A stretch of 42,120 nt of DNA from a virus (lineage: Duplodnaviria > Heunggongvirae > Uroviricota > Caudoviricetes): the IMG/VR virus record IMGVR_UViG_2534681763_000019; one strand, 5' to 3'. The notes under the pieces are model-generated. The model did no database searches and was not told the origin of the DNA. It saw nothing but the letters and a program-made list of their open reading frames with translations. Below are positions 698 through 42,120 of this stretch, one piece after another. The position numbers and the translations under genes were made by a program. Every line of letters begins with the position of its first letter. The first letter of the stretch is position 1.

Positions 698-1060
698 GGG
701 GCTGATTCTGGATTCGACGGGATTTGCGAAACCCAAGGTGCATGCCGAGGGGCGGTTGGCCTCGTAAAAAGCCGCAAAAAATAGTCGCAAACGACGAAAA
801 CTACGCTTTAGCAGCTTAATAACCTGCTTAGAGCCCTCTCTCCCTAGCCTCCGCTCTTAGGACGGGGATCAAGAGAGGTCAAACCCAAAAGAGATCGCGT
901 GGAAGCCCTGCCTGGGGTTGAAGCGTTAAAACTTAATCAGGCTAGTTTGTTAGTGGCGTGTCCGTCCGCAGCTGGCAAGCGAATGTAAAGACTGACTAAG
1001 CATGTAGTACCGAGGATGTAGGAATTTCGGACGCGGGTTCAACTCCCGCCAGCTCCACCA
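698..1060 (+). ncRNA. ssrA: tmRNA (transfer-messenger RNA)
   Basis: Starts GGGGCTGATTCTGGATTCGACGGG, contains the tag reading frame gcaaacgacgaaaactacgctttagcagcttaa (ANDENYALAA-stop) and ends in the tRNA-like GGTTCAACTCCCGCCAGCTCCACCA; 363 nt. Confidence 0.93.
1016..1060. repeat. attL: 45-bp ssrA 3'-end direct repeat (left prophage boundary)
   Basis: ATGTAGGAATTTCGGACGCGGGTTCAACTCCCGCCAGCTCCACCA is repeated exactly at 36277-36321; the interval between the copies carries a complete P2/186-like prophage with int next to the right copy. Confidence 0.8.
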
Positions 1061-1070
1061 AATAAATCAA

Positions 1071-1666: not shown

Positions 1667-1695
1667 AAACCTGCCGTAGCAGGTTCTCTTTCTCA
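1667..1695. terminator. Bidirectional hairpin terminator between convergent genes
   Basis: ACCTGC-CGTA-GCAGGT hairpin flanked by A-rich and T-rich runs, between the + gene ending at 1666 and ogr ending at 1693. Confidence 0.45.
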
Positions 1696-1911: not shown

Positions 1912-1979
1912 ATCCAGATCCCTACCTTTGCTATCAGAATCATTGTAATGATACACAAAATACCAATATTGAGAACCTT

Positions 1980-14064: not shown

Positions 14065-14088
14065 TGAAACAATACAACCATAGAATTT

Positions 14089-14538
14089 TTAGCTATTTAC
14101 CAGCCAATCACATAATATATCCTTGGTGAAATCTAAAACATCTTTGTTGCTTCCTAACAATTTCCGCTCTGCATAACGGACCTCAGGTCCTTTGCGACTG
14201 ACGCGATCACGCAAGCCGTAATGGTGAACGCGTGCAATGCGCTGCACCTTACCTTCAAACTGTACGCTGGCAGAATCAGCGCTGGCGGCAGTTTTCAGGT
14301 ATTTTGTGGTACGAAGCTTTGTAAACATCTGGCGTTTGATGCGCCCCTTTTTACTGCGTGCTGTTACCCGTCGCGGTTCATAGCTGCTGCCGTCAGGGTT
14401 GCGCTGCATCCTGATATTCTGCTGCTGTGTCCGGCGCAGTTCCTGCGCCAGCTGACGCATCATGCGAATTCTTGCGGCTGGCTCCAGATTCGCCAGCAAG
14501 GCACTCAGCCAGTCGTCCACTTTCTGCAGTTCAGCCAC
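14089..14538 (-). CDS. S: Tail completion protein S
   Basis: 149-aa ORF downstream of R with 8-nt overlap. Confidence 0.8.
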   Translation of the reverse strand: MAELQKVDDWLSALLANLEPAARIRMMRQLAQELRRTQQQNIRMQRNPDGSSYEPRRVTARSKKGRIKRQMFTKLRTTKYLKTAASADSASVQFEGKVQRIARVHHYGLRDRVSRKGPEVRYAERKLLGSNKDVLDFTKDILCDWLVNS

Positions 14539-22873: not shown

Positions 22874-23545
22874 TTAAAAACCAAGCTCATCTCTGATTCT
22901 TGGGAATTTTTTCATTACTCGAATATCAGTTAATAAATGCCAACGCCAAAAAACAGAAAATGGATATGATACATTACACATTGGCTTTAGCTTATTCTTG
23001 GCCTCTTGGATTTCTTGTTCTGTGCTTCGATCACTGACAAGTTTCATTCTCCAACCAGTAAAGTAAAACAATTCATCTTGTAACTTCTCTGAGAGATTTG
23101 CTCTTGTAATGCCCCTCAACCCCGTACTCGAAGAGTTAAAACACTTATCTAATAATTTGACTGTATTTAAAACCTTTCTACTTGGTCTTTTTCTTCTTGG
23201 GTATACTTGAACACCACTCGTTATAGCGTTCCCTGCGAGATGAACAATCTCACTGAAAACATCAACATCACTCTTTGTGCAATCAAGTAAGTTTTCAAAA
23301 GAATCACTTTTAATACTATTGCATCGACTGCAAGCTAAAAATAGATTGTTCCAATCATATTTGAGCTCATCAAGATCACGATGTGGAATAAAATGTTCTA
23401 TCTCTGGATCCATAAGATTACCTTGCTCACAGAGATAACATTTTCCATGAAATATTTCGTCTAAAGCATTTACAACTGTTTTATGGTTATATACTTTTCT
23501 CGACAAGCATTGAGGTGCAGGAATATTTCTAGTAACATTAAACAT
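22874..23545 (-). CDS. HNH endonuclease, Septu PtuB-like
   Basis: 223-aa ORF with HNH signature (HGKCYLCEQ...EIEHFIPH...WNNLFLACSRCNSIKSD); RBS aaagggaag; overlaps the upstream ATPase gene by 8 nt; very low GC. Confidence 0.7.
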   Translation of the reverse strand: MFNVTRNIPAPQCLSRKVYNHKTVVNALDEIFHGKCYLCEQGNLMDPEIEHFIPHRDLDELKYDWNNLFLACSRCNSIKSDSFENLLDCTKSDVDVFSEIVHLAGNAITSGVQVYPRRKRPSRKVLNTVKLLDKCFNSSSTGLRGITRANLSEKLQDELFYFTGWRMKLVSDRSTEQEIQEAKNKLKPMCNVSYPFSVFWRWHLLTDIRVMKKFPRIRDELGF

Positions 23546-24776
23546 CGTCTTCCCTTTCGCTATAATCTAAATATTTACTCTTAGCGATCATAAAAGCTGC
23601 TTTTGAACTTTTATCAAGAAAATCAATACTCTTCTGTAACGTTTTCATTATAGAATGAAATCTATCGTCGAAGACATTATTTTCTACTAAAGTCATTAAT
23701 TCTTTAACTAATGCATTTAGCTTATCCGAAGATACATCCTCACCCAACAATCCCTTTATAATTGCTGTGTAAGAATACAATGATAAATCACCCATCTGAT
23801 CCAATGTTGAGAGATTAAATATAATCGCATCAGATACTGATTGGATTACGAAAGGTGAATGCGTAGAAACAATAAATTGTATTTGCGGAAAAGATGATGA
23901 AAAAAAACTAAATACTTTCTTTTGCAATGTTACATGAAGATGAGCATCAATTTCATCAATAAGTACTATCCCTGTCATATCATGTTTTCTGATTTTATCA
24001 AGCTCTGCTTTTATCAATAAATCAGTATAAATAGAAAGAATTGATGAAAAACCAGATGACAACTTATCAAGTCCAAATGGTTCCTTATTATTTTGTAAAA
24101 GATAGATTTTCAACTTGTCGAGATCAAAATCCATTCTAATACTTTCATCTTCAAAAAGTTCTTTTAAGTCATCATTAATACTCTCAATAATATCAAAGGC
24201 TCTTTTATAGTCATCATCCTTGCCCACTCCCTTACTGACTAAAGCATAATTCCACAATGTAACTATGTATCTTTCAAAATACATACCAGCATCAATCTTA
24301 GAATTATTTCTCTGTGCGTTCCCATACTCAGTTAACAACAAATCGAGGCTGCTAATCTTACCATCATTTTTTATTTTCGCTTCTCGAATAGCAGGAAATA
24401 ATCTTATAATTGATTTTTTCTTTTTTGCAGCAACCCTGAAATCAACCACATCATTAAAAGTAATATCAAAGCTCTCAAATTCTTTTAATTTTTCTTTCAG
24501 TCTCTCAATTTCTTCGTTTAAATAGCTATAATTACCATCCCCTCTATTTGAATACTTTAAGTTTTCTTGACTGGAATTCAATTCCTTTTGTAGCTGCTCC
24601 TTAGTATAAGGATCATGTGAATTAATCGATTTTTCTATAAACTCATAAATATTCTCGATCAACCTAGTTTTACCAGAGCCATTATCTCCTGATATTATTA
24701 GATTCTTACCATCAAGATTTAATGTGTAAGGCTCATCGTTCCTTTTAAAGAAGATAGTTTCGATGAAATGTCGCAT
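23538..24776 (-). CDS. ABC-type (AAA_15/21-like) ATPase, Septu PtuA-like
   Basis: Walker A GDNGSGKT, signature-like LSSGFSS, Walker B IVLIDEIDAHLH, H-loop STHSP. Start placed at the second Met (GGAGG 4 nt upstream); the ORF track starts 15 nt earlier at 24791. Confidence 0.7.
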   Translation of the reverse strand: MRHFIETIFFKRNDEPYTLNLDGKNLIISGDNGSGKTRLIENIYEFIEKSINSHDPYTKEQLQKELNSSQENLKYSNRGDGNYSYLNEEIERLKEKLKEFESFDITFNDVVDFRVAAKKKKSIIRLFPAIREAKIKNDGKISSLDLLLTEYGNAQRNNSKIDAGMYFERYIVTLWNYALVSKGVGKDDDYKRAFDIIESINDDLKELFEDESIRMDFDLDKLKIYLLQNNKEPFGLDKLSSGFSSILSIYTDLLIKAELDKIRKHDMTGIVLIDEIDAHLHVTLQKKVFSFFSSSFPQIQFIVSTHSPFVIQSVSDAIIFNLSTLDQMGDLSLYSYTAIIKGLLGEDVSSDKLNALVKELMTLVENNVFDDRFHSIMKTLQKSIDFLDKSSKAAFMIAKSKYLDYSEREDDV

Positions 24777-24866
24777 TATTCCTCCCGTCATACTTAATAG
24801 CTTTTAGATAATATGACATTACATGTTAGATTTCATCCGTTTTGTGAACATATCCACTGCCGCGCG

Positions 24867-25228: not shown

Positions 25229-25882
25229 ATGAATAAATACAAACTTTTCGCACAGCTATCAAGATATTCATTTGAAGCGCAGATTGATGATTTCGAAAAA
25301 TATATCCTAGGAGCAGGCGGCCAAAACAGAGTTGACTTATCGGAATTAAAAAAAGCATATGAAGATGAAAAAAAGAATGCTCCTGACGATTATATTAATT
25401 ACTTAGAAGACTATTATTCAGAGCAATATGATTTCTTAGTTAACATACAACCAAATATTTTTAATAAATCTGCTTTGGTATCTTTATACTCATGCTTAGA
25501 GCACAACCTAAACGACTATTGCAATATATGTCAAAGGATTGTAAACACCAATATATCAGTAACCGATTTTAATGGTGATGGCATCCACAAAGCAAAAAGA
25601 TATTTAACAAAATTAATGGATATAAACTTTGGCCTGTCACAAGAGTGGCGATTCATGACAGAGTTTAACAAAGTAAGGAATTGCATAGTTCATGCTAATG
25701 GAGACATTAAAAAAATGAGCACAGCTGTAGCCTTAAAAGATATCATTGATAAAACACCTACTCTTTCATTAAACAATGAAAATAATATAATAATCTCCTT
25801 AAATTATTTAAAAGATACTATCACAAAAATTAGAAAACTCTTTCAATGGTTATATACACATCTGGATCAATCATCGAAATGA
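25229..25882 (+). CDS. Hypothetical protein with HEPN-like R-x4-H motif
   Basis: 217-aa ORF, very AT-rich, with C-terminal motif KVRNCIVHANGD (R-x4-H) typical of HEPN RNase domains; sits at the old/tin-equivalent position between cos and A. Confidence 0.55.
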   Translation: MNKYKLFAQLSRYSFEAQIDDFEKYILGAGGQNRVDLSELKKAYEDEKKNAPDDYINYLEDYYSEQYDFLVNIQPNIFNKSALVSLYSCLEHNLNDYCNICQRIVNTNISVTDFNGDGIHKAKRYLTKLMDINFGLSQEWRFMTEFNKVRNCIVHANGDIKKMSTAVALKDIIDKTPTLSLNNENNIIISLNYLKDTITKIRKLFQWLYTHLDQSSK

Positions 25883-26134: not shown

Positions 26135-27001
26135 TTAGATGGCTTTGCTTCGATATTCAATTTCTAAAATCGCCTTTGTCATTGCCGCAATAGTTATAGC
26201 TTCTACCATAGTCAATTCAGGCTTGTTCAAGCTTCCGTGTCCAGCAGTAGGTAATTTGTTACGTAAATCATAAATATCTTTAACAGCATCAATAAGATTC
26301 TTAGGTAATTTTGACATTTTTTCGAACTGTTTAAAAAAACCACCCAATGACTCATTTGCCACATTCGGGTTTTGAGTGATTTCCTTAGCCATAGTTTCTA
26401 AAACATTAGAGGCTGCGTGCAGTGCACCTGCCGGATCATTATTATCCAAGCAATTATTCATTCTATCTATTTGCTGAACGATATTTGGGTGCAATCTCTT
26501 TAAGTAATCACTAGCCAATTCTTCATTGAAATTTTTGACACTTTCAAAAACATCGCAATCTAAATAAAATTTAGGATTGACTGACATCCATGTATATTTC
26601 CAATCATTTTCTAAATTATCTTTTTCCGCAATACGCCTGCCAGTGTCCTGATCTATCTCATCAACATATTTACACATATAATCGGCGTAGTAGTGTAAAT
26701 ATCTAAATGATATTTCTGGGCAAAAATTACTAACTGATGCAAGGCCGCCATATTCTTTTGTAGTAACTGTAGGGACTTCTTCATCACATAAAGATGAGAA
26801 AGTGGTTCTTTCCCAAAATTCGCCCAACTCTTTTTCTTTCCTAGTTGCCATACCAGCTATCATATTGATGCTTGAGAGCAAAACTACACTCTGATAGTAT
26901 CGAGGACATCTGTATGAACTAGCATATGGGCATATTGATGATGCTTTACGATTAATACGCTCTTTTTCCCACCAATTTTTATCAGGAATAATTCTTTGCA
27001 T
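26135..27001 (-). CDS. Hypothetical protein (accessory cargo)
   Basis: 288-aa ORF, AT-rich, convergent with the HEPN-like gene, Cys/Tyr-rich N-terminus and helical C-terminus with LRNKLPTAGHGS; no family assignable by eye. Confidence 0.5.
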   Translation of the reverse strand: MQRIIPDKNWWEKERINRKASSICPYASSYRCPRYYQSVVLLSSINMIAGMATRKEKELGEFWERTTFSSLCDEEVPTVTTKEYGGLASVSNFCPEISFRYLHYYADYMCKYVDEIDQDTGRRIAEKDNLENDWKYTWMSVNPKFYLDCDVFESVKNFNEELASDYLKRLHPNIVQQIDRMNNCLDNNDPAGALHAASNVLETMAKEITQNPNVANESLGGFFKQFEKMSKLPKNLIDAVKDIYDLRNKLPTAGHGSLNKPELTMVEAITIAAMTKAILEIEYRSKAI

Positions 27002-27489
27002 AATTTAGCTACTATCTCACGAGTGAATGAATGTTTAGCCTTCTGCACAGTTTATCAGTTCCGGCATGCCTACTGCTACCCCACTGATTCAACTTCAAGT
27101 TATGAGTTAAAGCGATTCGGTTTCGCTAGATGACACACTAGTGTTAATTTATGGATAAAAATTTATCACTTAAAATTAACTAATGCCTGTTGCGACCAAA
27201 AGTGTGCTGGAATATTATTTTCGTCTGGCCTATTATCAAGCTAATTATCCAAATTAGAGTTACTCTCATTCATCAGCAACAAATAAATACACCTGTTCAC
27301 TTTCTCAAAGTGTTCCTGTTTTATTTTTAAAGCAAACAACGCCGCCTATTCGTCCGAATGTACAACAAACATCAGGTTCTGACACAAAGTGGACGATCAC
27401 TTATCAAAATGACCGCCCACCTTACACCTCATTTCACTCGTTGCCCAAACTCCCCCCAACAGGATAAATCCTCTTGGGGGCAACGTTTC

Positions 27490-27723
27490 TTAATGCAGCC
27501 AGCTGTCGTCTTCCCACACCTTCTGCATAATTTTCAGCACTTGTTTTCTTTCTTCGTCCAGTTGCAGTACGGTCAGTTCCACACCGTTAGAGCTACCTTT
27601 GCGGATACGAATTACCGTTTTGGGATACAGGGGGCGCAGATTGCGGTAAAGCTCGGATTCAAGGGCATCCAGGGTAGACTGGCTAATCTTCTGCTCTTTA
27701 TCGATCATTATTTCAATGCGCAT
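27490..27723 (-). CDS. DinI-like protein (Tum-region)
   Basis: Translation from the internal Met (MRIEIMIDKEQ...IMQKVWEDDSWL) follows the DinI pattern (MRIEV... ...ETWESADDWF); the ORF track's longer N-terminal extension was not used. Confidence 0.65.
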   Translation of the reverse strand: MRIEIMIDKEQKISQSTLDALESELYRNLRPLYPKTVIRIRKGSSNGVELTVLQLDEERKQVLKIMQKVWEDDSWLH

Positions 27724-27733
27724 AAAAGTCACC

Positions 27734-27922
27734 TCAGCTGATGACATCCATTGAGCGGTTGTATTCGTGGGTTCTGATTTTTGCCATGAGTTCATCAGTC
27801 AATTCAGAAACCCACTGCAGAGCCAGCCCCTTCTCTTCATCACTACACTCACTAGCCGCTACAAGCTTAAGAAAAAAATCAATGCGCTGGAGCTTCAAAG
27901 ACTCCAAAAAATAGTCCTGCAT
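27734..27922 (-). CDS. Small hypothetical protein, first gene of LexA-box operon
   Basis: 62-aa ORF from MQDYFLESL... with a strong RBS (AGGAGGAAAG) 4 nt upstream; the longer 96-aa ORF-track version would read through the LexA box. Confidence 0.5.
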   Translation of the reverse strand: MQDYFLESLKLQRIDFFLKLVAASECSDEEKGLALQWVSELTDELMAKIRTHEYNRSMDVIS

Positions 27923-32316: not shown

Positions 32317-32565
32317 ATGTTGAACCCGGTTGAAAGAGAGCGTATAGAGCAACTTGAAAACGAGATCTCCAGTCTTCGCGATGAGGTTGCTGTTCAACGA
32401 ATTCTTGTTTCAGGTCTGATCCACTCCTTATTTCGAACTGACTCAGCAAATCAATCAGCATTTTTTGAGCTCCTCCGCGAAGAATTAAACAAACTTCCTT
32501 TAGGTTCGGTTAAACAACAAGAATTCACTCATCTGATACAGACACTGATAGATCGTTACCGATAA
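32317..32565 (+). CDS. Hypothetical coiled-coil protein, opposite strand within early region
   Basis: 82-aa ORF with RBS (aaggaa) 7 nt upstream and a plausible promoter (TTGATA...TATTGAT); looks more protein-like than the antisense ORF 32198-32461. Confidence 0.4.
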   Translation: MLNPVERERIEQLENEISSLRDEVAVQRILVSGLIHSLFRTDSANQSAFFELLREELNKLPLGSVKQQEFTHLIQTLIDRYR

Positions 32566-32780: not shown

Positions 32781-32954
32781 TTGGACTTTCTCCGTTTCCT
32801 CGTGATCAATTCAGACAGCAATTCATCTTGTGAACGGCACGGATGCCAGCGTTTACCATCCTCACCCATGATCCAGCCGTGACCGTAGTGCATTGCCGGG
32901 CTTTGTTTTACCAGCAGCGATGCAAATGATGGTTCTTTCGTCAGCATAAGCACC

Positions 32955-33739: not shown

Positions 33740-33860
33740 AGTGCAGTATCTCTTACTTTGTGTGCGTGTTAGTTCGTTTTAGCTCGTCTCTTTAACTCTC
33801 ATATCAAGAGACATGAAGACATTACGATCTTGATTCAAGATTGTCAAATGGAGATTACCA
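33740..33860. promoter_or_regulatory. Lysis-lysogeny switch region (divergent promoters and operator-like palindromes)
   Basis: Intergenic region between divergent apl and cI; contains palindrome TCTTGATTCAAGA and inverted repeat ATCAAGA...TCTTGAT. Confidence 0.5.
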
Positions 33861-34493
33861 ATGTTAAACATCAGAATGGGTTCCGATACGGGAGGTAAGG
33901 CAGCTATTGAGAGGCTGCTTGAGGCTTATGGATTCACAACTAAGCAGGCATTAAGCGAGCACCTGAATGTCTCAAAAAGTACTATGGCAAACAGAGTGTT
34001 ACGTGACAGTTTTCCTGCTGACTGGATAATTCAGTGTGCACTAGAAACCGGTGTTTCGTTACTTTGGTTAGCCACAGGACAGGGAAGCATGAAAGAAGGA
34101 TACGAGCCTGAGAAAAGATCTCATAACGAGAACAAACAAGCAATTAAACCGTTATCCAAACTCATAACTCCATCTATTCCTAAAGGAACCTTGGAAAATG
34201 GACAACTCAGTATTGATGAAGAGATTTTCCTAGACCACAGCATATTACCTGCAGATTATGAAGAATCGATGTTCTTAGAAACCCCTACTGATTGTTATCT
34301 CATCGATAAATCAGTTAAACAAGTCAGCAATGGATTCTGGCTTATCAATATTGATGGAATGATTATTATTGCAAAAATCATGCGGATTCCCGGCAATAAG
34401 ATTGTAGTAAATCAAGATGAAGCATCTTTCGAGTGCTCTGCTGATGATGTGGAAGTTATTGGGCGTGCAGTCAAAGTAATAAAGAGTATCTAA
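33861..34493 (+). CDS. cI: CI-like immunity repressor
   Basis: 210-aa ORF divergent from apl and directly upstream of int; N-terminal HTH-like segment (LSEHLNVSKSTMANRV). Confidence 0.7.
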   Translation: MLNIRMGSDTGGKAAIERLLEAYGFTTKQALSEHLNVSKSTMANRVLRDSFPADWIIQCALETGVSLLWLATGQGSMKEGYEPEKRSHNENKQAIKPLSKLITPSIPKGTLENGQLSIDEEIFLDHSILPADYEESMFLETPTDCYLIDKSVKQVSNGFWLINIDGMIIIAKIMRIPGNKIVVNQDEASFECSADDVEVIGRAVKVIKSI

Positions 34494-34495: not shown

Positions 34496-35512
34496 ATGAC
34501 TGTCAGAAAACAGCCAAACGGTAAATGGTTGTGCGAGTGCTATCCCAATGGACGCAATGGCAAGCGCGTGCGTAAGCAATTTGCTACGAAAGGCGAAGCC
34601 ATTGCTTTTGAAAGCTTCACAATGGAAGAAGTGAACAAAAAACCATGGCTGGGGGAAAAGGAAGATCGGCGACACCTATCAGAATTAATTGAGCAGTGGT
34701 ATTCCCTGTATGGTCAAACACTCGCAGACCCCAAGCGCCTCATGGCGAAACTTAGAATTATCTGTAATGGTCTAGGCGATCCCATCGCTTCAGAACTGAC
34801 AGCCGGTGACTTTACGAAATACCGCGAAGCACGGTTAAAAGGTGAAGTACGAAATGAAGATGGCACGTTTATGTCGCCCGTTAAGCCCCGCACGGTAAAC
34901 CTTGAACAGCGCAATCTATCATCTGTTTTTGGTACACTGAAAAAGTTGGGCCACTGGTCAGCCTCCAACCCGCTTGCTGGGCTGCCAACATTTAAAATTG
35001 CTGAGAGTGAATTGGCGTTCCTGACCCCGGAAGAAATTAAACGTCTGCTGGATGCCTGCGCCGATTCTCAAAGCTCCAGCCTGCTTTTGATTGCAAAAAT
35101 ATGCCTGGCCACCGGCGCACGCTGGAGCGAAGCCGAAAACCTGCAGAGTCATCAGGTATCAAAATACCGTATCACTTATACCAAGACCAAAGGCAAGAAA
35201 AACCGAACTGTGCCTATTTCTAAGGATTTATATGAAGAACTGCCTAAGAATAGGGGGAAGTTATTCACCCCATGCAGAAAAGCCTTTGAGCGTGCAGTAA
35301 AGCGGGCTGGTATCGATCTGCCAGAGGGTCAATGTACTCACGTTCTGCGTCATACATTCGCTAGCCATTTTATGATGAATGGTGGAAACATATTGGTTTT
35401 GCGGGATATCCTAGGACATTCAGATATAAAAATGACCATGGTCTATGCACACTTCGCCCCAGACCATTTAGAAGATGCCGTAACTAAAAATCCTTTATTT
35501 AATTTGAGGTAA
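34496..35512 (+). CDS. int: Tyrosine integrase (P2/186 family)
   Basis: 338-aa ORF with tyrosine-recombinase C-terminal motifs (ATGARWSE...HVLRHTFASHF...LGHSDIKMTMVYAH); adjacent to attR. Confidence 0.88.
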   Translation: MTVRKQPNGKWLCECYPNGRNGKRVRKQFATKGEAIAFESFTMEEVNKKPWLGEKEDRRHLSELIEQWYSLYGQTLADPKRLMAKLRIICNGLGDPIASELTAGDFTKYREARLKGEVRNEDGTFMSPVKPRTVNLEQRNLSSVFGTLKKLGHWSASNPLAGLPTFKIAESELAFLTPEEIKRLLDACADSQSSSLLLIAKICLATGARWSEAENLQSHQVSKYRITYTKTKGKKNRTVPISKDLYEELPKNRGKLFTPCRKAFERAVKRAGIDLPEGQCTHVLRHTFASHFMMNGGNILVLRDILGHSDIKMTMVYAHFAPDHLEDAVTKNPLFNLR

Positions 35513-35522
35513 GTAGTAATTT

Positions 35523-36191
35523 ATGAATAGCGAACTAGAGTTACTTATAAAAATATTATTCCCTTCCCTATCTGCCATTATATCCTTATTAGGGCTTAAA
35601 ACAGGGTGGACTTATAAAAAAGACAAACTATTCACATCACGTAAAAACATTAGCGAATTTTCATATCAGATGTATAAAAGCAGTGAAGATCCGACCTTCA
35701 AAAAACTGGCGGAAGATTACGGCATTGCTGCATTAACCAAAGATAACACATTGACAAAAAAACAAAGATTAATATTACTCAACACAACAAACCCCGTTAG
35801 CGATATAGATAATTATTCCAAATGTCAAAGTCTAATTTCCATTACCACCCATAAAGAAATATTCGCATGGAATAAAAAAAGATATAAATACAGCATATAT
35901 AGAAAATTAATAAAAATCATAACAACTCTAATTTACTTCATGAGCAGTCTCATCGTAGCACTTCCTTTCAGTTATTCTGTTGTAGTAAGTGCTAAGATGA
36001 TGGAGAAGATAAACCATCTAACTACTTGGCAATACTTTGGTTTAAGCAGCTATTTTGTGGTATCGGGAGTAGCAATATGCTTTATCTGCCTAGATAAGCT
36101 CTCCAAGATTAAGATCGCCGAGAGATTAATCGTTTCGAATAGGCGTTTAGGCGACAAATGCAGTGGCGGCACTTTGGCGGCAGAAAGTTAA
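35523..36191 (+). CDS. AT-rich membrane protein (moron between int and attR)
   Basis: 222-aa ORF, very low GC, hydrophobic helices (LFPSLSAIISLLGL, IITTLIYFMSSLIVALPF, YFGLSSYFVVSGVAICFICL). Confidence 0.6.
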   Translation: MNSELELLIKILFPSLSAIISLLGLKTGWTYKKDKLFTSRKNISEFSYQMYKSSEDPTFKKLAEDYGIAALTKDNTLTKKQRLILLNTTNPVSDIDNYSKCQSLISITTHKEIFAWNKKRYKYSIYRKLIKIITTLIYFMSSLIVALPFSYSVVVSAKMMEKINHLTTWQYFGLSSYFVVSGVAICFICLDKLSKIKIAERLIVSNRRLGDKCSGGTLAAES

Positions 36192-36276: not shown

Positions 36277-36321
36277 ATGTAGGAATTTCGGACGCGGGTT
36301 CAACTCCCGCCAGCTCCACCA
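36277..36321. repeat. attR: second copy of the 45-bp ssrA 3'-end repeat
   Basis: Exact copy of 1016-1060; followed by a terminator and a P4-like integrase gene. Confidence 0.8.
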
Positions 36322-36356: not shown

Positions 36357-36390
36357 AGCCCACACAGCACAAGCTCTGCGGGCTTTTTTA
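36357..36390 (+). terminator. Rho-independent terminator downstream of attR
   Basis: Imperfect hairpin AGCCCACACAGC / GCTCTGCGGGCT followed by TTTTTTA. Confidence 0.5.
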
Positions 36391-36444
36391 CGTCTATTGT
36401 CGTCCAGTGAGAATTGCTGAGAACTACGAGTTATGGCACCCTGA

Positions 36445-37716
36445 ATGGGACCCACTAAGAAGGGTCCAAAAACCGAGGGTCCCAAAATGGCAAAAATCGC
36501 TAAGAAGCTCACTGACACTGAAATCAAAAGCACCAAGCCAGCCGATAAAGAAATCAACTTGTTTGACGGTGATGGTCTGATTCTACGAATCGCTCCTTTG
36601 GCGAAAGGAGGCAAGAAAAATTGGTATTTCAGGTATGCAGTACCAGTGAGCAAGAAAAGAACCAAAATGAGCCTTGGGACATATCCTCACCTTACCCTTG
36701 CAAGAGCCAGAGCCTTACGTGATGAATATCTCTCCTTTCTGGCAAATGGTGTTGATCCCCAAATCCATAACAACGATAAGGCGAAGGCATTAAAGAGTGC
36801 TACTGAGCACACTCTCCAAGCCGTAGCGCGGAAATGGTTAGATGAGAAGGTAAAGACATCAGGTATCTCACAAGACCATGCAGCAGACATCTGGCGCAGC
36901 TTAGAGAGAAATGTCTTTCCCGGTCTGGGTAATGTCCCTATCAATGAGATCCGACCTAAGCTCTTAAAACAACACCTTGATCCTATTGAGCAACGAGGCG
37001 TATTGGAAACTCTACGCCGTATCATTTCACGTCTGAATGAAATCTTCCGGTGGGCAGCTACTGAAGAACTTATTGAGTTCAACCCGGCTGACAACCTTGG
37101 TCAAAGATTCAGTAAACCAAAAAAGCAAAATATGCCTGCCCTTCCCCCAAGCGAATTGCCAAGGTTTATGGAATCTTTGACGAATGCGTCAATCCGGTTG
37201 GAAACACGTATGCTAATTGAATGGCAATTGTTGACATGGGTTCGTCCGGGTGAAGCCGTTCGCGCAAGGTGGTCTGATATTGATACAACCAACAGCATTT
37301 GGAACATTCCTGCTGATTTCATGAAAATGAAAAAGCTTCACAAAGTTCCTTTGAGTAAAGAAGCTTTGCGCATCCTTGAATTAATGAAATCAATAAGTGG
37401 GCATAGAGAATGGGTTTTCCCCAGCATAAAAGCGCCTCTTAATCATATGCATGAACAAACAGCCAACGCAGCTATCATCCGAATGGGGTTCGGAGGCGAG
37501 CTTGTAGCTCACGGTATGCGTTCTATTGCACGAACAGCGGCAGAGGAGGCTGGTAAATTCAGAGCTGAAGTTCTTGAGGCAGCGCTTGCCCACTCGAAAA
37601 AAGATGAAATTATCGCAGCATACAATCGTGCAGAATATCTGATAGAGCGACAGAGTTTGATGCAATGGTGGAGTGATTACGTTCAAGCTCAAAGATCAAA
37701 TGCTCTGGTAGCCTAA
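36445..37716 (+). CDS. P4/CP4-57-like tyrosine integrase
   Basis: N-terminus (MAKIAKKLTDTEIKSTKP...LFDGDGL...WYFRY) follows the P4-family integrase pattern (probable start at the internal Met, 36487); C-terminus has recombinase motifs (ELVAHGMRS...ALAHS...AYNRAEY); sits beside the ssrA att remnant like intA of CP4-57. Confidence 0.85.
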   Translation: MGPTKKGPKTEGPKMAKIAKKLTDTEIKSTKPADKEINLFDGDGLILRIAPLAKGGKKNWYFRYAVPVSKKRTKMSLGTYPHLTLARARALRDEYLSFLANGVDPQIHNNDKAKALKSATEHTLQAVARKWLDEKVKTSGISQDHAADIWRSLERNVFPGLGNVPINEIRPKLLKQHLDPIEQRGVLETLRRIISRLNEIFRWAATEELIEFNPADNLGQRFSKPKKQNMPALPPSELPRFMESLTNASIRLETRMLIEWQLLTWVRPGEAVRARWSDIDTTNSIWNIPADFMKMKKLHKVPLSKEALRILELMKSISGHREWVFPSIKAPLNHMHEQTANAAIIRMGFGGELVAHGMRSIARTAAEEAGKFRAEVLEAALAHSKKDEIIAAYNRAEYLIERQSLMQWWSDYVQAQRSNALVA

Positions 37717-37754
37717 GTATCAGAATAGCTAATATAATCCTGAAGGTAAAGAAA

Positions 37755-38171
37755 ATGGAAACCCTATTCAAAGTTTTTGAAAAATTTAGTTCCAGACCAC
37801 TTTTTTTTATTTTTTTCGGACTCTCACTTTGTGAATTTTTTCAGAAACAATCTGTTCTGATGAATCCATCAGCAGATAACATCGCGAAATTATTCGCAGC
37901 CATGATATTAGTTGTTTTTTTTACTTGGGGATTTGAATGGCTAATCTTCAAGTTCAATGTAAACCTTGAACCTCATGATCAAGGCGATATTGGACCAACA
38001 ATTGGAACGGCTACTTTAGCTGTATACTTAGTTTATGCCTTTCACTTTCTCAGTGAAAATCCTGAAGCATTAAATTTAAAGTTATTAACTAACTCTGGCT
38101 TTATATACAGCACAACTCTATTATTATTCTCATTAGAATGCATGAAGCTTAGAAGACTTAAACAAAAATAA
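37755..38171 (+). CDS. Small hydrophobic protein
   Basis: 138-aa AT-rich ORF with 3-4 hydrophobic helices, directly downstream of the integrase. Confidence 0.5.
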   Translation: METLFKVFEKFSSRPLFFIFFGLSLCEFFQKQSVLMNPSADNIAKLFAAMILVVFFTWGFEWLIFKFNVNLEPHDQGDIGPTIGTATLAVYLVYAFHFLSENPEALNLKLLTNSGFIYSTTLLLFSLECMKLRRLKQK

Positions 38172-38242
38172 ACAACATCATTGTGATGATAAATATAAAA
38201 TAGGCATGGCGAAAAAAAATCACCACGCCTAAAATATAATAA

Positions 38243-40009
38243 TTATGGTAGCATCATTGATACATAATCCACACCAATCCTTGAGCTATACTGAGACGCT
38301 ATAGCCTGATATCTTTCTGCATAACCAGTTCTCAGTTGAGATTTAAGTTTGAGTCGGACAGGAACATTTTGCACGTTGCCATCCATATTACTTAAAAACA
38401 CGGCAGAAATAATATTTTTTTCTTCGCCATCAACTGTTGTTCCATGATTCAACACCACCATATAATCAACAACAGGAAGCGTTTTATCCCCTTCGAAAAT
38501 AGAGAGATATTTTCTTTGATTTTTATGCATTACATATATATATTTCGAATGTTCAGCAAATGGCAATGCTTTACTCTGACTGGCGTTAAAAAGCTCCAGA
38601 ACTTTAATGAGCCTGTGCGGACTTAATCTTACATGGTGAGGGTCGTTACCCTGAGTAGGAACCAAATCACATGCCGCAGATACACATAAATACCATTTGT
38701 TCGACTCTGTATCAAAGAAAATAGTGCCAGTAGAAATATGACCATCTTCAAAATTCTTTGAAGACAAATTCATATTTAAAGCATGATACATTTCGTGATA
38801 AGTATCATTATTTGATGGCAGATCCATTTTTGAAGAGCAATATTGGAGCAATGCAGCAACTCCGCTGTTAGCGTATTCATTTGAATAGCTATCAAAAACA
38901 CTTTTGATAAATTCATCCAGCGTATTATTATTTTTAAGTCTTTGATAAAGCTCTTCTGATAAATTACCAAATACAAAGTCAATATTTCTACATCTAATAT
39001 CAGGCGAGTCTGATTTTAATATCTCATTTAACCACGCAGCTTGACCGTAATGATCGTTAGCCAAATGATTTACAAAAGATAAAGCCTCAGCTTCGATTGC
39101 ATTCTGAATTTCAGATTTTATTAACTGATAATAAGATGGTTTCCATTCAATGAGAGAATCATTGAGAGTTTGCCAAATCCTATCTCCATCGTTTTCATGA
39201 TCATCTTGAACCTTATGAAATAGGGAGACAAAGATATTACCACATTGAATCCATTTTACTCCGCTTTCATCACCCCGAATGACATTGCCAGATGTGTTGC
39301 TAGAAATAATTGCATTTCTAGACACAGCATATTCTGCAATCATTTTTGCAATGAAGTTTTTATCCTTTTGATCCTCCAACACAGCATCATCATGTATTAA
39401 TCTTTTAATTCTTCTACAAGGCTTACTGTCTTTAATATAGGCTATTGTTTCATCTCTTGTGAGAGCTTTATTACCATTATCATTTAAGTTCGGTAATACA
39501 ACGTCTTCCCAATAACTTTGGACATCTTCATTATCGTAGTCAATGATCAAGCTGTTGATATCCAGAGCACCTTTGAGAGTCGATGATATCTGCATCCAAA
39601 CCGTTTCTAAATTCTCTCTAGTATATATTACAATCATATTTAAATGATCGGAGTCTTTCAAATCTTGTAATAGTTTAAGTGTTTTATCAGGTGCATTATT
39701 ATCAAGATGATAATCTACAATAATAAGATCTGATTTTCTAATCCGATCCACATCGAAATTAACAGAACCATTGTCAACATCACAAATCATATTTTTAGAT
39801 TGTAAAAAGCTCTCAAGAGTAGCGGCTCGTTTAGATGAGTCAATTTTGTTGTAGTCTAAATCAACTTCGTTATTCAACGCCCTGATTGATTCAGAATACG
39901 TCAGAAAATCGTCATCAATCATGACAACGGAACGAATTGCATTTTCGCAGAAAGTTTTCTGGACAAGAGAATTATAATTTGCCACTGTCATATTAGAACT
40001 CCACTCCAT
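38243..40009 (-). CDS. Receiver (REC)-domain protein with large uncharacterised C-terminal domain
   Basis: 588-aa ORF. N-terminus has receiver-domain hallmarks: acidic pocket VVMIDDD, phospho-Asp-like DLIIVDYHL, conserved Thr MIVIYT. No HTH evident in the ~450-aa C-terminal region. Start overlaps the upstream kinase-like gene by 17 nt. Confidence 0.7.
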   Translation of the reverse strand: MEWSSNMTVANYNSLVQKTFCENAIRSVVMIDDDFLTYSESIRALNNEVDLDYNKIDSSKRAATLESFLQSKNMICDVDNGSVNFDVDRIRKSDLIIVDYHLDNNAPDKTLKLLQDLKDSDHLNMIVIYTRENLETVWMQISSTLKGALDINSLIIDYDNEDVQSYWEDVVLPNLNDNGNKALTRDETIAYIKDSKPCRRIKRLIHDDAVLEDQKDKNFIAKMIAEYAVSRNAIISSNTSGNVIRGDESGVKWIQCGNIFVSLFHKVQDDHENDGDRIWQTLNDSLIEWKPSYYQLIKSEIQNAIEAEALSFVNHLANDHYGQAAWLNEILKSDSPDIRCRNIDFVFGNLSEELYQRLKNNNTLDEFIKSVFDSYSNEYANSGVAALLQYCSSKMDLPSNNDTYHEMYHALNMNLSSKNFEDGHISTGTIFFDTESNKWYLCVSAACDLVPTQGNDPHHVRLSPHRLIKVLELFNASQSKALPFAEHSKYIYVMHKNQRKYLSIFEGDKTLPVVDYMVVLNHGTTVDGEEKNIISAVFLSNMDGNVQNVPVRLKLKSQLRTGYAERYQAIASQYSSRIGVDYVSMMLP

Positions 40010-41711
40010 TGAACTGGATCACAAAATTAGCGCCATCTTTTATTAAATAGTTATCGCCTTCATCAGGTTCTGAATACCATATTTTATGATGTGCAACAGC
40101 AAGGTTTTCTCGACATAGATACAGACCTACCCCATGTCCATTTGCTCTTTTGCTATAAAATAGTTCAAATAGTCGCGGGATATCATCGGTATCAATTGCC
40201 GGACCAGAATTTGCTATGATAACCAAAGAATTCACAAAACCAATCTTTATGAGCCTATTATTTGACAGACTGACCCAATACATTGCATTGTTGATAATAT
40301 TAGTAAAAACAGGATAGATCCTTGATGGTATATCTGTTATTGCGATTTGCTTAAACTCTTCACTAAATTCAATAGTTATTCGTTGCCGTTCGAAACGCTC
40401 CCCAAAGAACTTCAGGACATAATCCATGATATTTTTTCCAGTTATTCTCTGCCTGGATTGATAACCTGATATTTTCAAAGGTGATAAGAAACGTATTTGT
40501 TGAGTAAGCGATCTGTGAGCATTTAACGCCAATGAAAAACCAGGGTGTTCTTTTACAGAAGTAGGAAGAGAGTTTAGTCCTCTGGTTACCATAGAATCCA
40601 TTTCTTCAAGTTCATGAGATATTATCTCAACACTAATACCTAACTGTGCAAGCGCGTTTAAACTTTTAGCTTTTTCTTCAAAATATGAGCGTTCTTCTTC
40701 AGATAATGAGAATGCTGAATCTAAGTTTATACCTTCAAATAATCTATCGAGACCTTTTATTATTGATTGATATTTGAAAGTTAGGGTATCAACTGACTCA
40801 ACATATAAACTATCGAGCAAATTAAACACATTTTCAATTTGTGAATCATTATCTATTGAATCAACAACTGATATAGTTTTAGCATAATAATCACTTCGAT
40901 CAACCTTTATTTCATCGGCCCATTTTTTTAAAAGAGAATGTATCTTCTCCTCTATCGTGTTATTAAACTTAGTTAGTTTAGAATTAATAATACCTTGATT
41001 TTTTTCAAGGTGATTTTTCGCTGACAATGAAGGCTCAAGTTTATTTAATTCAGAATCAAGTTTATTAATTGCTAACTTCATTTGTAGAATATACGCAGAG
41101 AACTCATTAAATTTATCTCTGTAGTCTCTATATTTCTCTTCATACATTCCAAGTTTTGGAGGTTTGATAGGCGTTTTAATTTCACTGCGCAACGCATCTA
41201 AGTTTGTAAGATCACTGTCTATAATTTTAAGATAGTTTAAATCTAACGAACCATCAGTTTTATCAAGCTTAGTTTTCAGCCTTTTAACAGCCTCCAAGGA
41301 AGCATCAAGAACTGGTGTCTGATTCTTCAAAGCTTCTGAAAAACTTTTTTGTGTTGATTTTCGAGCTTGTTGTTGAGCAGATTTTCTTAACTCTTTTTCA
41401 CGCTTAACTTGTTCTAAAAGCTCTTTACGGTCATCAGAACGTGAACCAAAAAATCTATCAGCAAGTTCAGTTAACAAATTAGATATAATAGTTTTCAGTT
41501 CTCTTGCAGCCTGGTTTCTTATGAATCCCTCTCTCCCCGACTTATCTTTCAGCTCTTTATTACTGGATTGAGTAATTCCAATATAACCAAAAATCCTTCT
41601 ATTAGACCAATAATATCGCCCTGCATTCCATGAACGTCTTTCTTCTATCTGGAAGAAATCATTATCTACTCGACCATAAGGTAATACTCTCAAGCTATCC
41701 CTAAAAATCAT
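39993..41711 (-). CDS. Soluble histidine-kinase-like protein (DHp + HATPase_c), 5' end possibly truncated by IS3
   Basis: 572-aa ORF. H-box-like IISHELEEM, N-box FTNIINNAMYW, G1-like IIANSGPAID, G2-like ANGHGVGLY; long coiled-coil-rich region upstream; no TM segments. The same frame stays open upstream of the first Met to the IS3 end at 41832. Confidence 0.7.
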   Translation of the reverse strand: MIFRDSLRVLPYGRVDNDFFQIEERRSWNAGRYYWSNRRIFGYIGITQSSNKELKDKSGREGFIRNQAARELKTIISNLLTELADRFFGSRSDDRKELLEQVKREKELRKSAQQQARKSTQKSFSEALKNQTPVLDASLEAVKRLKTKLDKTDGSLDLNYLKIIDSDLTNLDALRSEIKTPIKPPKLGMYEEKYRDYRDKFNEFSAYILQMKLAINKLDSELNKLEPSLSAKNHLEKNQGIINSKLTKFNNTIEEKIHSLLKKWADEIKVDRSDYYAKTISVVDSIDNDSQIENVFNLLDSLYVESVDTLTFKYQSIIKGLDRLFEGINLDSAFSLSEEERSYFEEKAKSLNALAQLGISVEIISHELEEMDSMVTRGLNSLPTSVKEHPGFSLALNAHRSLTQQIRFLSPLKISGYQSRQRITGKNIMDYVLKFFGERFERQRITIEFSEEFKQIAITDIPSRIYPVFTNIINNAMYWVSLSNNRLIKIGFVNSLVIIANSGPAIDTDDIPRLFELFYSKRANGHGVGLYLCRENLAVAHHKIWYSEPDEGDNYLIKDGANFVIQFNGVEF

Positions 41712-41832
41712 TAGTCCTGCATACTTTTTGGCCTTAAGATCAAAGTGGGAATGTTCACGTTCAGTATGTGATGTATTTTGTGAAAGGAATTCAAACGTTC
41801 CTATCTGAAGCTCAAATGGGCCGACCCCTGCG

Positions 41833-42120
41833 TGATCCTACCCACGTAATATGGACACAGGCCTAAGCGAGGTTCTTGTTTTCAAATTGTTCCGGACTGA
41901 GGCCGCCACACCAACTGTGCCGCCGCCACCGATTGTAATCACATTCGATATAATTAAACACCGTTGCCCGCATTATTTCCCGGCTGATAAAGTGTTCTCC
42001 ATGGATACATTCCACTTTCAGCGAATGAAAGAAGCTTTCCACGCAGGCATTATCGTAGCAGCAACCTTTTGCGCTCATACTTCCACGCAGATTATGCCGC
42101 TTCAGTTGCGCCTGATAATC
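41833..42120 (-). mobile_element. IS3 (partial; right inverted-repeat end, element continues beyond the window)
   Basis: Terminal sequence TGATCCTACCCACGTAATATGGACACAGGCCTAAGCG matches my recollection of the IS3 right inverted repeat; encodes the C-terminus of the IS3-family OrfB transposase. Confidence 0.8.
41863..42120 (-). CDS. IS3-family transposase OrfB, C-terminal part (truncated by window edge)
   Basis: ORF-track 71-aa fragment (...[23 protein letters not shown]...[12 protein letters not shown]) with the frame open to the window edge; DDE transposase C-terminus. Confidence 0.8.

What the first reader, a model, noticed from the sequence alone, without database searches (positions are those of the whole stretch)
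35523..36191. Second AT-rich membrane-protein moron between int and attR
A 222-aa low-GC ORF with several hydrophobic helices lies between the integrase gene and the att repeat, a position empty in minimal P2-family genomes. Cargo at this position is typically lysogenic-conversion or exclusion-type. Together with the attL-end and S-V morons this prophage carries cargo at at least four distinct sites.
Basis: seen in the sequence. Interest (0 to 1): 0.4.

Follow-up and report, generated by a model that had tools for sequence, protein, structure and literature searches.

The report
Prophage membrane-protein cargo gene beside integrase
A real, intact gene for a small inner-membrane protein of unknown function has been slotted between the integrase gene and the attachment site of a P2/186-like E. 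coli prophage, at a known swap site for accessory genes, and it is most likely, though unproven, a single-gene defence against other phages.

Summary
ORF 35523-36191 (+) encodes 222 aa at 34.5% GC, against 49.5% for the prophage. It has three hydrophobic helices and lies between int and the 45-bp ssrA att repeat.

The prophage is a 186/Fels-2-like peduovirus integrated in ssrA. Empty-site relatives show the insert is 651 bp (35513-36163). It starts right after the int stop codon and ends at the first Int arm-type repeat.

The gene begins 10 nt after int, and I found no promoter or terminator of its own. It is best read as a third gene of the cI-int lysogenic operon, not a classical moron.

In 49 related loci the slot is empty in 15. 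In 34 it holds one of at least six unrelated cargos, including a recognised dCTP-deaminase defence gene.

The protein family has 76 representatives, all named members from Enterobacterales or Orbaceae. It is under purifying selection (dN/dS 0.08-0.19). It never has a conserved partner gene.

It also occurs in the main P2 gpA-portal defence hotspot, in a P4-like satellite beside a retron, and intact in decayed prophage remnants. It matches no Pfam, PADLOC or PDB entry, and no known fold despite a confident model.

An anti-phage role is inferred, not shown. The hotspot itself was already published in 2026.

The parts
35523..36191 (+). Cargo ORF of 222 aa (RefSeq WP_001083625.1, 'hypothetical protein'; phrog_21256). 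Predicted 3-TM inner-membrane protein with a cytoplasmic domain of about 100 aa between TM1 and TM2.
35513..36163 (.). The 651-bp insert relative to empty-site relatives. Its left edge is the base after the int stop codon. Its right edge is the base before the first Int arm-type repeat.
34496..35512 (+). Tyrosine integrase of the 186/Fels-2-like prophage. It is 91-95% identical in prophages whose downstream family member is only 47-53% identical.
33861..34493 (+). 186-type CI repressor, the first gene of the presumed lysogenic operon cI-int-ORF.
36164..36182 (+). Two direct TGGCGGCA repeats 11 bp apart (36164-36171 and 36175-36182). They are conserved in relatives whatever the cargo, and are presumed Int arm-type sites by analogy with 186 (consensus YAYCGCCAYTY on the other strand). 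The ORF's last nine codons (SGGTLAAES) read through them.
36277..36321 (+). attR core, a 45-bp exact copy of the ssrA 3' end.
1016..1060 (+). attL core, the 3' end of the intact tmRNA gene (698-1060).
36371..36395 (+). Terminator-like hairpin plus T-run, the displaced native ssrA terminator. It is the first terminator-like signal downstream of the ORF on its strand.

Best explanation
The ORF is a functional accessory gene carried in the int-att slot of an ssrA-integrating 186/Fels-2-like prophage.

Shown:
- It is a 651-bp low-GC insert bounded by the int stop codon and the Int arm-type repeats.
- It is co-oriented with cI and int and starts 10 nt after int. No promoter- or terminator-like signal of its own was found.
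- It encodes a conserved protein with one N-terminal helix and a C-terminal helical hairpin, all hydrophobic, with about 100 conserved residues in between.

Inferred:
- It is transcribed in the lysogen as the third gene of the pL/pE lysogenic operon, as annotated for cI-int-Orf69 in phage 186.
- Its topology is N-terminus out, large domain in the cytoplasm, short loop in the periplasm, C-terminus in.

Most likely function (about 0.5): a self-contained, single-gene anti-phage determinant that protects the lysogen.

Favoured mechanism: the cytoplasmic helical domain with its beta-hairpin detects an incoming phage component at the inner face of the membrane. The TM2-TM3 hairpin, which carries near-invariant Tyr138 and Pro148, then either perturbs membrane integrity (abortive infection, about 55% of the anti-phage mass) or blocks genome translocation (exclusion, about 45%).
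For: - Cargo status: relatives with the same int and att have an empty slot (MLG42; 15 of 49 IMG/VR loci with a 117-nt int-att gap) or unrelated single genes there (RES-like protein in Cartapus and RE2010; six cargo clusters).
- Exact boundaries.
- Operon position: the gap after int is 10 nt here, and cargo starts 2-14 nt after int in most occupied loci. The scan finds no + strand promoter-like site after 34369 and no terminator before 36371. The 186 record annotates pL and pE as driving a lysogenic operon cI-int-Orf69 that runs up to the Int arm sites.
- Real gene: 76 family representatives, mostly 200-230 aa; dN/dS 0.08-0.19; 29 intact, at least 99.2% identical copies among 198 E. coli genomes that carry this int.
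- Membrane topology: hydropathy; AlphaFold model with pLDDT 92.3 and pTM 0.80; family-wide net charge of -0.8 at the N-terminus, +2.3 and +4.5 flanking the large loop, 0 in the short loop.
- Defence association: the family also sits between gpA and Ogr/portal, the main P2 defence hotspot, in Kosakonia. It sits in a P4-like element next to an STM3845 plus RT retron. It shares the int-att slot with a dCTP-deaminase gene in Siccibacter. A sibling cargo elsewhere scores 2.2e-146 against PADLOC dCTPase.
- Retention: it survives intact in decayed prophage remnants.
- Autonomy: it never has a conserved neighbour.
- Literature: int-att is a minor P2 defence hotspot, and 6 of 8 unknown-function loci from P4 hotspots proved defensive (PMC13586616). 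Transmembrane proteins in these hotspots are regarded as suicide effectors (PMC9122126).
Against: - There is no experimental or homology evidence for any activity. Pfam, NCBIfam, PADLOC and PDB sequence searches are empty for the protein and for 62 relatives.
- Fold searches give nothing significant.
- PHROGs returns only the protein's own unknown-function family.
- No conserved catalytic-looking residues appear.
- Expression is inferred, not measured. The putative Shine-Dalgarno GAGG lies 13 nt from the ATG, which is far.
- Classical injection-blocking exclusion proteins usually expose their bulk to the periplasm (own knowledge). Here the bulk is predicted to be cytoplasmic.
- In K. quasipneumoniae and an Orbaceae genome the homologue sits among housekeeping or metabolic genes with no phage context. 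That also fits a general membrane role.
- The hotspot prior comes mainly from P4 and from the gpA-gpQ site. Machine-learning methods in the 2026 paper flagged only 15-32% of unknown P2 proteins as defensive.
Confidence: 0.5

Rival explanations
1. Lysogenic-conversion membrane protein unrelated to phage defence. It would alter envelope physiology, stress tolerance, transport or host interaction to the benefit of the lysogen.
For: - It is a small integral membrane protein with no enzymatic motifs.
- Orphan copies sit among metabolic or housekeeping genes in K. quasipneumoniae and Orbaceae.
- Copies are retained in prophage remnants, which shows host benefit but not what kind.
- Defence HMM libraries do not recognise it.
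Against: - It recurs in three different phage or satellite defence hotspots and beside dCTP-deaminase and retron systems.
- It does not match Gtr-type or other known conversion families in Pfam.
- It is patchy and rare: 29 of 5426 E. coli genomes.
Confidence: 0.25
2. A phage life-cycle function. As a membrane-anchored regulator it would modulate integration or excision, induction, lysis timing or immunity of its own prophage, given that it is in the cI-int operon and its 3' end overlaps the Int arm sites.
For: - Operon position directly after int.
- The ORF tail is encoded by the conserved arm-type repeats.
- The order of secondary-structure elements in the soluble domain resembles a winged helix.
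Against: - 15 of 49 close relatives lack any gene there, and others carry unrelated genes, so the gene is dispensable for the phage.
- Family members function away from int: in the gpA-portal slot, in a satellite, and at orphan loci.
- Most homologues stop about 14 codons earlier, so the overlap with the arm sites is allele-specific.
- The presumed recognition helix is acidic (DIDNYSKCQ), which is untypical for DNA binding.
Confidence: 0.1
3. A non-functional or decaying ORF that is merely tolerated at a recombination-prone junction.
For: - No known domain.
- The SD spacing is poor.
- One Klebsiella homologue is a 305-aa read-through variant, and a few are partial.
Against: - Purifying selection is strong.
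- Length and architecture are conserved in 76 representatives.
- The structure model is of high confidence.
- All 29 E. coli copies are intact.
- The gene is retained after the surrounding prophage has decayed.
Confidence: 0.03

Closest known systems
int-att accessory/defence hotspot of P2-like prophages (Nucleic Acids Res 2026, PMC13586616)
   Same: [quoted passage not shown] Here too the slot holds interchangeable cargo, including a recognised defence gene (dCTP deaminase).
   Different: That paper counts known systems (3% of P2 systems) and does not describe this protein in the text held. DefenseFinder/PADLOC-type models do not recognise the family. Its supplements were not available.
P2 gpA-gpQ hotspot cargo (old, tin, and the systems of Rousset et al. 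2022, PMC9122126)
   Same: Low-GC, lysogen-beneficial cargo of peduoviruses that is swapped between otherwise near-identical phages. A distant family member occupies exactly that hotspot in Kosakonia. This prophage carries Septu there.
   Different: A different slot in this window. The gene is embedded in the cI-int operon and is not a separate unit. No sequence motif of the family was found in the held part of Rousset's tables.
Phage 186 Orf69 (CP69)
   Same: Positional analogue: a third ORF after cI and int, immediately before the Int arm-type sites and attP, within the annotated lysogenic operon.
   Different: 83 aa and unrelated in sequence (hhalign probability 0.1%). 186 integrates in a tRNA-Ile gene, not in ssrA.
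RES-like 395-411-aa protein of Escherichia phage Cartapus and Salmonella phage RE2010
   Same: Alternative occupant of the identical slot, starting about 10 nt after int and ending at the same arm repeats. It is the commonest cargo in the survey, 13 of 34 occupied loci.
   Different: Unrelated soluble protein with only a weak RES-domain hit (E 0.009, below Pfam's cut-off).
Prophage superinfection-exclusion membrane proteins (P22 SieA, T4 Imm, HK97 gp15); properties recalled from own knowledge
   Same: Small, single-gene inner-membrane proteins expressed from a prophage or phage that act without a partner.
   Different: No sequence or fold similarity. PHROGs returns only phrog_21256 of unknown function, and BFVD gives no hit. 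The bulk of this protein is predicted to be cytoplasmic, not periplasmic.
'1TM' protein of the 2TM+1TM+TIR system of P2-like phage AC1 (Rst_2TM_1TM_TIR)
   Same: Loosely similar layout: an N-terminal TM, a helical stretch of about 100 aa, and a C-terminal hydrophobic segment. It is P2-hotspot cargo. There is a weak PADLOC hit (E 0.012).
   Different: Profile comparison gives a probability of 0.7% and BLASTP E 1.6. None of the 62 relatives hits the model at E 0.01 or better. There is no TIR or 2TM neighbour here.

Membership tests
Moron (Hendrix/Juhala sense) | Present in some genomes and absent from otherwise collinear relatives | tested here: met
   Empty slot in MLG42 and in 15 of 49 loci with the same int and att. 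The insert is precisely bounded.
Moron (Hendrix/Juhala sense) | Base composition unlike the surrounding phage genes | tested here: met
   34.5% GC against 49.5% for the prophage and 46.3% for int.
Moron (Hendrix/Juhala sense) | Autonomous transcription unit with its own promoter and terminator | tested here: not met
   The start is 10 nt after the int stop. The consensus scan finds no + strand promoter-like site after 34369 and no terminator-like site before 36371, beyond attR. A consensus scan cannot exclude a weak internal promoter.
P2-like int-att defence hotspot cargo (PMC13586616) | Located between the integrase and att of a P2-like prophage | tested here: met
   The prophage has Phage_GPA, 186-type CI, CII and Fil genes.
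P2-like int-att defence hotspot cargo (PMC13586616) | The slot holds interchangeable cargo that includes recognised defence systems | tested here: met
   Six cargo clusters in 34 occupied loci. One is a dCTP deaminase (PADLOC 2.2e-146). In Siccibacter the family member and a deaminase share the slot.
P2-like int-att defence hotspot cargo (PMC13586616) | The protein itself is recognised as a defence component | tested here: not met
   PADLOC gives only chance-level hits for it and for 62 relatives.
P2-like int-att defence hotspot cargo (PMC13586616) | Confers resistance to phage infection | not testable with these tools
   Needs plaque or efficiency-of-plating assays.
Superinfection-exclusion inner-membrane proteins (SieA/Imm/gp15 type) | Integral inner-membrane protein | tested here: met
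   Prediction only: three hydrophobic helices and the positive-inside pattern across 62 members.
Superinfection-exclusion inner-membrane proteins (SieA/Imm/gp15 type) | Sequence or fold homology to a known exclusion protein | tested here: not met
Superinfection-exclusion inner-membrane proteins (SieA/Imm/gp15 type) | Expressed in the lysogen and blocks genome entry of superinfecting phage | not testable with these tools
   Expression is inferred from the operon position and the 186 annotation. Phenotype is untested.
Rst_2TM_1TM_TIR, 1TM component | Homology to the AC1 1TM protein | tested here: not met
   PADLOC E 0.012, hhalign probability 0.7%, BLASTP E 1.6.
Rst_2TM_1TM_TIR, 1TM component | Adjacent TIR and 2TM partner genes | tested here: not met
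   The slot holds a single gene here and in the homologous loci.
PHROG phrog_21256 | Full-length profile match | tested here: met
   E 6.6e-155, residues 1-222 matched to profile positions 1-222 of 222. The family is annotated 'unknown function'.
Winged helix-turn-helix domain | H-H-turn-H followed by a beta-hairpin wing, with fold similarity to known wHTH proteins | tested here: inconclusive

The most novel reading that the evidence does not exclude
The family would be a previously unrecognised single-gene anti-phage system with a new fold. A cytoplasmic domain, possibly winged-helix-like, is inserted between an N-terminal TM helix and a conserved TM hairpin, so one 210-aa protein both senses infection and acts on the membrane. 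The gene moves among the int-att slot, the gpA-portal hotspot of peduoviruses and P4-like satellites, and is kept by hosts after the phage decays.
Probability: 0.4. Interest if true: 0.55.

Novelty: new member of a known kind. Interest (0 to 1): 0.35.

Why it matters
The int-att slot of ssrA-integrating 186-like prophages turns out to be a precise one-gene swap site, bounded by the int stop codon and the Int arm repeats. Its cargo is apparently expressed by riding on the repressor-integrase operon.

Most of the occupants seen here are uncharacterised: this family, a 343-364-aa membrane family, a 461-508-aa family and a RES-like family. The site is therefore a compact, easily cloned source of candidate single-gene defence or conversion functions.

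This family is a good first test case. It is autonomous and conserved, models confidently, resembles no known fold, and recurs in three independent defence hotspots. If it has no phage phenotype, that would be a useful caution against assigning defence roles to hotspot genes by association alone.

Tried and rejected
- **Known-family searches.** Pfam, NCBIfam, PADLOC and PHROGs scans of the protein, and Pfam and PADLOC scans of 62 relatives, found no informative family. PHROGs returned only phrog_21256, of unknown function.
- **PADLOC '1TM-TIR' hit (E 0.012).** I followed it up by taking the AC1 protein from Rousset's Table S2A. hhalign gave 0.7% and BLASTP E 1.6. Rejected as chance.
- **PADLOC Cas2_II hit (E 0.007).** It covers 34 residues across a TM segment. 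Rejected as chance.
- **First structure model.** With 18 close sequences it was poor (pLDDT 63.5). Only the 62-sequence alignment gave a usable model.
- **Profile against PDB sequences.** The whole protein and the soluble domain alone matched only designed helical repeats.
- **tblastn against 50,697 phage records.** No match. The gene is absent from deposited phage genomes and known only from prophages.
- **Plasmid collection.** No match.
- **The search for related loci.** With the wide alignment it failed for lack of a conserved stretch. The genome-contig scan with the close alignment found nothing.
- **Second homologous-protein run, with the wide alignment.** It added only two proteins.
- **Literature and supplement look-ups.** Searches for the accession and for family peptide motifs found nothing.
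- **186 Orf69 as a homologue.** Rejected.
- **pL promoter.** I could not identify it by the consensus scan in 33740-33860.

Full report
**1. What is in the sequence**

The ORF listing gives an ATG-started ORF at exactly 35523..36191 on the + strand, 222 aa. Its GC content is 34.5%. That compares with 46.3% for the integrase gene just upstream, 39.8% for cI and 49.5% for the whole prophage.

Hydropathy shows three hydrophobic stretches, at about residues 4-29, 128-160 and 170-196.

ARAGORN and Rfam place an intact tmRNA gene at 698-1060. Its last 45 nt (1016-1060) recur exactly at 36277-36321. These two copies are attL and attR of a prophage of about 35 kb.

The window is E. coli chromosome. 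It is 100% identical to ETEC-2265 and others, where the ORF is WP_001083625.1, 'hypothetical protein'.

The prophage is a 186/Fels-2-like peduovirus. It has a 186-type CI (Phage_CI_repr plus Phage_CI_C), an Int_N/Phage_integrase recombinase, CII, a Fil pseudogene, DUF2732, a TraR/DksA-type protein, a Dam methylase and a gpA replication endonuclease. Its closest deposited relatives are Escherichia phage Cartapus, Salmonella phage RE-2010 and Yersinia phage MLG42.

**2. Exact anatomy of the slot**

In MLG42 the int stop codon is followed after 3-4 nt by ATGGCGGCACTTTGGCGGCA, and then by about 100 nt leading to the att core. In Cartapus and RE-2010 a 401-aa gene begins about 10 nt after int and ends just before the same repeat pair.

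In the window the repeat pair is at 36164-36171 and 36175-36182, spaced 11 bp apart. Aligning the window to empty-site loci places the insert at 35513-36163, which is 651 bp.

The curated phage 186 record annotates Int arm-type sites (consensus YAYCGCCAYTY, whose complement contains TGGCG) at the equivalent position next to attP. By analogy I read the TGGCGGCA pair as Int arm sites.

The ORF's last nine codons (SGGTLAAES) and its stop codon are encoded by this conserved arm DNA. Most homologues stop about 14 codons earlier. The overlap is therefore a feature of this allele and its closest relative, not of the family.

**3. How the gene is probably expressed**

The ORF starts 10 nt after the int stop codon, on the same strand as cI and int. 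A consensus scan finds no promoter-like site on that strand after 34369. It finds no terminator-like site until 36371-36385. That site is the native ssrA terminator, displaced beyond attR by the integration.

In a survey of related loci, cargo in this slot is on the int strand in all but one case. It usually begins 2-14 nt after int.

The 186 record describes pL and the CII-activated pE as promoters of a 'lysogenic operon'. That operon comprises cI, int and a third ORF, Orf69, which lies immediately before the arm sites.

The best reading is that the gene rides on the repressor-integrase transcript and is made in the lysogen. This is inference; I could not locate pL itself by the consensus scan. 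It also means the element fails the 'own promoter and terminator' criterion of a classical moron.

**4. The slot is a swap site**

I fetched 80 IMG/VR loci encoding integrases 89-99% identical to this one. Both int and the att core were present in 49 of them.

Fifteen of the 49 have the minimal 117-nt gap. The other 34 hold cargo. The cargo falls into these clusters:

| Cargo | Size | Loci |
|---|---|---|
| RES-like family | 395-411 aa full-length | 13 |
| Membrane family | 343-364 aa full-length | 11 |
| Unnamed family | 461-508 aa | 6 |
| This family | 218-222 aa | 2 |
| IS transposase | 267 aa | 1 |
| Protein on the opposite strand | 585 aa | 1 |

The last protein scores 2.2e-146 against the PADLOC dCTP-deaminase defence model. 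The sample is the best-matching 80 of at least 597 loci and may be redundant, so these proportions are rough.

In complete E. coli genomes this int type occurs in 198 of 5426. The 651-bp cargo occurs in 29 of those, all at least 99.2% identical and all annotated as intact.

The same ORF allele is linked to two different immunity types, with cI 100% or about 58% identical. Integrases 91-95% identical are followed by family members only 47-53% identical. Cargo and backbone therefore recombine independently.

[quoted passage not shown] The hotspot as such is already known.

**5. The protein family**

A word-indexed search found 22 clusters, 45-98% identical and all unannotated. An exhaustive HMM search found 76 representatives at E 1e-3 or better (39 at 1e-10 or better), nearly all 200-230 aa.

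The named members come from Escherichia, Siccibacter, Klebsiella, Cronobacter, Citrobacter, Kosakonia, Enterobacter/Scandinavium, Rosenbergiella, Acerihabitans, Rahnella, Lonsdalea, Affinibrenneria and an Orbaceae isolate.

Where synonymous change is not saturated, dN/dS is 0.08, 0.10 and 0.19. Elsewhere pS is about 0.8 while pN is 0.19-0.34. The gene is under purifying selection.

It is not met: only one read-through variant and a few partial sequences turned up.

**6. Structure and topology**

With 18 close sequences AlphaFold gave pLDDT 63.5. With the 62-sequence alignment it gave pLDDT 92.3 and pTM 0.80.

The model has these elements, in order:
- One long helix, residues 2-54 (TM1 continuing out of the membrane).
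- Helices 57-72, 79-86 and 91-100.
- A beta-hairpin, 105-107 and 114-116.
- A helix at 124-149 (TM2).
- Two short helices.
- A helix at 168-215 (TM3 plus a C-terminal extension).

Across the 62 members the net charge is -0.8 at the N-terminus. It is +2.3 just after TM1 and +4.5 just before TM2. It is 0 in the short TM2-TM3 loop and +0.6 at the C-terminus. By the positive-inside rule this puts the 100-residue domain and the C-terminus in the cytoplasm.

The best-conserved positions are W116, R127, Y138 and A199 (each at least 90%) and P148 (87%). Y138 and P148 lie inside TM2. This suggests the membrane part is more than an anchor.

The order of elements in the soluble domain resembles a winged helix. 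However, the third helix is acidic, and I could not test the excised domain.

**7. Comparison with known families**

Nothing informative came from any of the following:
- Pfam, NCBIfam and PADLOC for the protein.
- Pfam and PADLOC for all 62 relatives.
- PDB sequences, with the whole profile and the domain-only profile.
- Foldseek against PDB and BFVD: no E below 0.001.

PHROGs returns phrog_21256 at full length, annotated 'unknown function'.

The one suggestive lead was a PADLOC hit to the '1TM' protein of the AC1 2TM+1TM+TIR system. It failed a profile comparison with the actual AC1 sequence, with probability 0.7%.

186 Orf69, the positional analogue, is unrelated. The gene is absent from 50,697 deposited phage genomes and from plasmids.

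**8. Genomic contexts of relatives**

Same slot, directly after int of a 186-like prophage:
- E. coli.
- Siccibacter, followed by a dCTP-deaminase gene, with both genes inside the att-bounded prophage.
- Rosenbergiella.

After cI and one or two unannotated genes:
- Acerihabitans.
- Rahnella.

A different hotspot:
- Kosakonia, between gpA and Ogr/portal, which is the main P2 defence hotspot of Rousset et al..

A satellite:
- A P4-like element (HTH_17, VapE-like primase), next to an STM3845 plus reverse-transcriptase retron.

Prophage remnants:
- Citrobacter, E. coli and Enterobacter/Scandinavium, at one chromosomal site. In some contigs it sits next to Ogr and portal fragments.
- At ssrA, a deletion has fused the 5' part of a P4-type integrase to the 3' end of a 186-like int. 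It leaves only the family member and the arm repeats.

No phage context at all:
- K. quasipneumoniae and an Orbaceae genome.

No neighbour is conserved in any of these contexts. The protein must therefore act on its own or with host components.

**9. Interpretation**

Shown: the gene is a real, selected, autonomous accessory gene. It is inserted with single-gene precision into a swap site of the prophage, and it encodes a confidently modelled membrane protein of unknown fold.

Inferred: it is expressed in the lysogen through the cI-int operon, and it has the topology described in section 6.

Most likely function, at about 0.5: protection of the lysogen against other phages. The grounds are these:
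- It recurs in three defence hotspots.
- It keeps company with known defence genes.
- It is retained after the prophage decays.
- 6 of 8 unknown-function loci from P4 hotspots proved defensive in the 2026 study.

Because the bulk of the protein faces the cytoplasm and TM2 carries conserved Tyr and Pro, I slightly favour an abortive-infection mechanism. In it, the cytoplasmic domain senses infection and the TM hairpin perturbs the membrane. The alternative within the anti-phage reading is a block of genome entry.

The rivals are a conversion function unrelated to phages (0.25), a role in the prophage's own life cycle (0.1) and a non-functional ORF (0.03).

The counter-evidence is substantial. 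There is no homology, no fold match, no catalytic motif and no expression data. Two orphan contexts look like ordinary chromosome. Machine-learning methods flagged only 15-32% of unknown P2 proteins as defensive.

**10. Verdict**

The gene is better described as operon-embedded hotspot cargo than as a moron, and its function remains unproven.

It is a new member of a known kind: an uncharacterised occupant of a hotspot already described. Interest is moderate (0.35). It would rise to about 0.55 if the family proves to be a new single-gene membrane defence.

Noticed in passing
window 22874-24791 (- strand): A complete Septu defence system sits in the low-GC (about 31-34%) gpA-portal hotspot of the same prophage. 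It comprises PtuA (23538-24791, PADLOC 7e-122) and PtuB (22874-23545, HNH, 1.8e-82). Further unannotated low-GC ORFs follow at 25229-25882 (+), 26135-27001 (-) and 27358-27741 (+).
   Followed up: partly
window 36445-42078: A second island lies directly after attR. It has a P4-type integrase (36445-37716), a 138-aa hydrophobic ORF (37755-38171), and a low-GC gene pair on the - strand: a Response_reg_2 protein (38243-40009) and a HEF_HK/HATPase_c protein (39993-41711). An IS3 transposase fragment follows (41863-42078). The pair is not recognised by PADLOC. It looks like a candidate conflict system in a tandem ssrA island.
   Followed up: partly
window 1061-1125: Just past the attL core the phage supplies a GC-rich hairpin plus T-run (AAGGGGTTACG..CGTAGCCCCTTTTT). 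This would replace the ssrA terminator displaced to 36371-36395. A second pair of TGGCGGCA-like repeats follows (GTGGCGGCAAAATGGCGACA), the other Int arm. The same arrangement occurs in MLG42 and Cartapus.
   Followed up: partly
L026:4640-5640 and L033:4650-5324: These loci hold a remnant of a second, tandem prophage at ssrA. The 5' part of a P4-type integrase gene is fused by deletion to the last 60 nt or so of a 186-like int gene. An intact family member and the arm repeats follow, but no att core.
   Followed up: partly
L044, L046, L068, L091, L096, L101, L107 and others (int-att slot); L058, L072, L074, L076, L077, L082: Two further uncharacterised single-gene cargo families occupy the same slot. 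One is a 343-364-aa protein with N-terminal TM helices (11 loci, some apparently frameshifted). The other is a 461-508-aa soluble protein (6 loci). Neither has a Pfam or PADLOC match.
   Followed up: partly
L012-L020 compared with window 33861-34493: The identical cargo allele (100% aa), with a near-identical int (98.8-100%), is linked to two different CI repressors, 100% or about 58% identical. Immunity-region swapping therefore occurs right next to the cargo.
   Followed up: no
window 13624-14064 (+) and 1184-2136 (+): There are two further low-GC patches. A 146-aa TTG-start ORF lies on the opposite strand among the tail genes (GC 41.5% at 13801-14400). Two ORFs of 160 and 143 aa lie at the attL end (GC 43%). 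The 160-aa ORF is conserved in Cartapus and MLG42 and has a weak PADLOC PDC-S48 hit (1.7e-7). The others have no matches.
   Followed up: partly
window about 32792-32947 (-): RefSeq annotates the Fil (cell-division inhibitor) gene of this prophage as a truncated pseudogene. An 82-aa ORF on the opposite strand (32317-32565) is annotated as a hypothetical protein between DUF5347 and fil.
   Followed up: no
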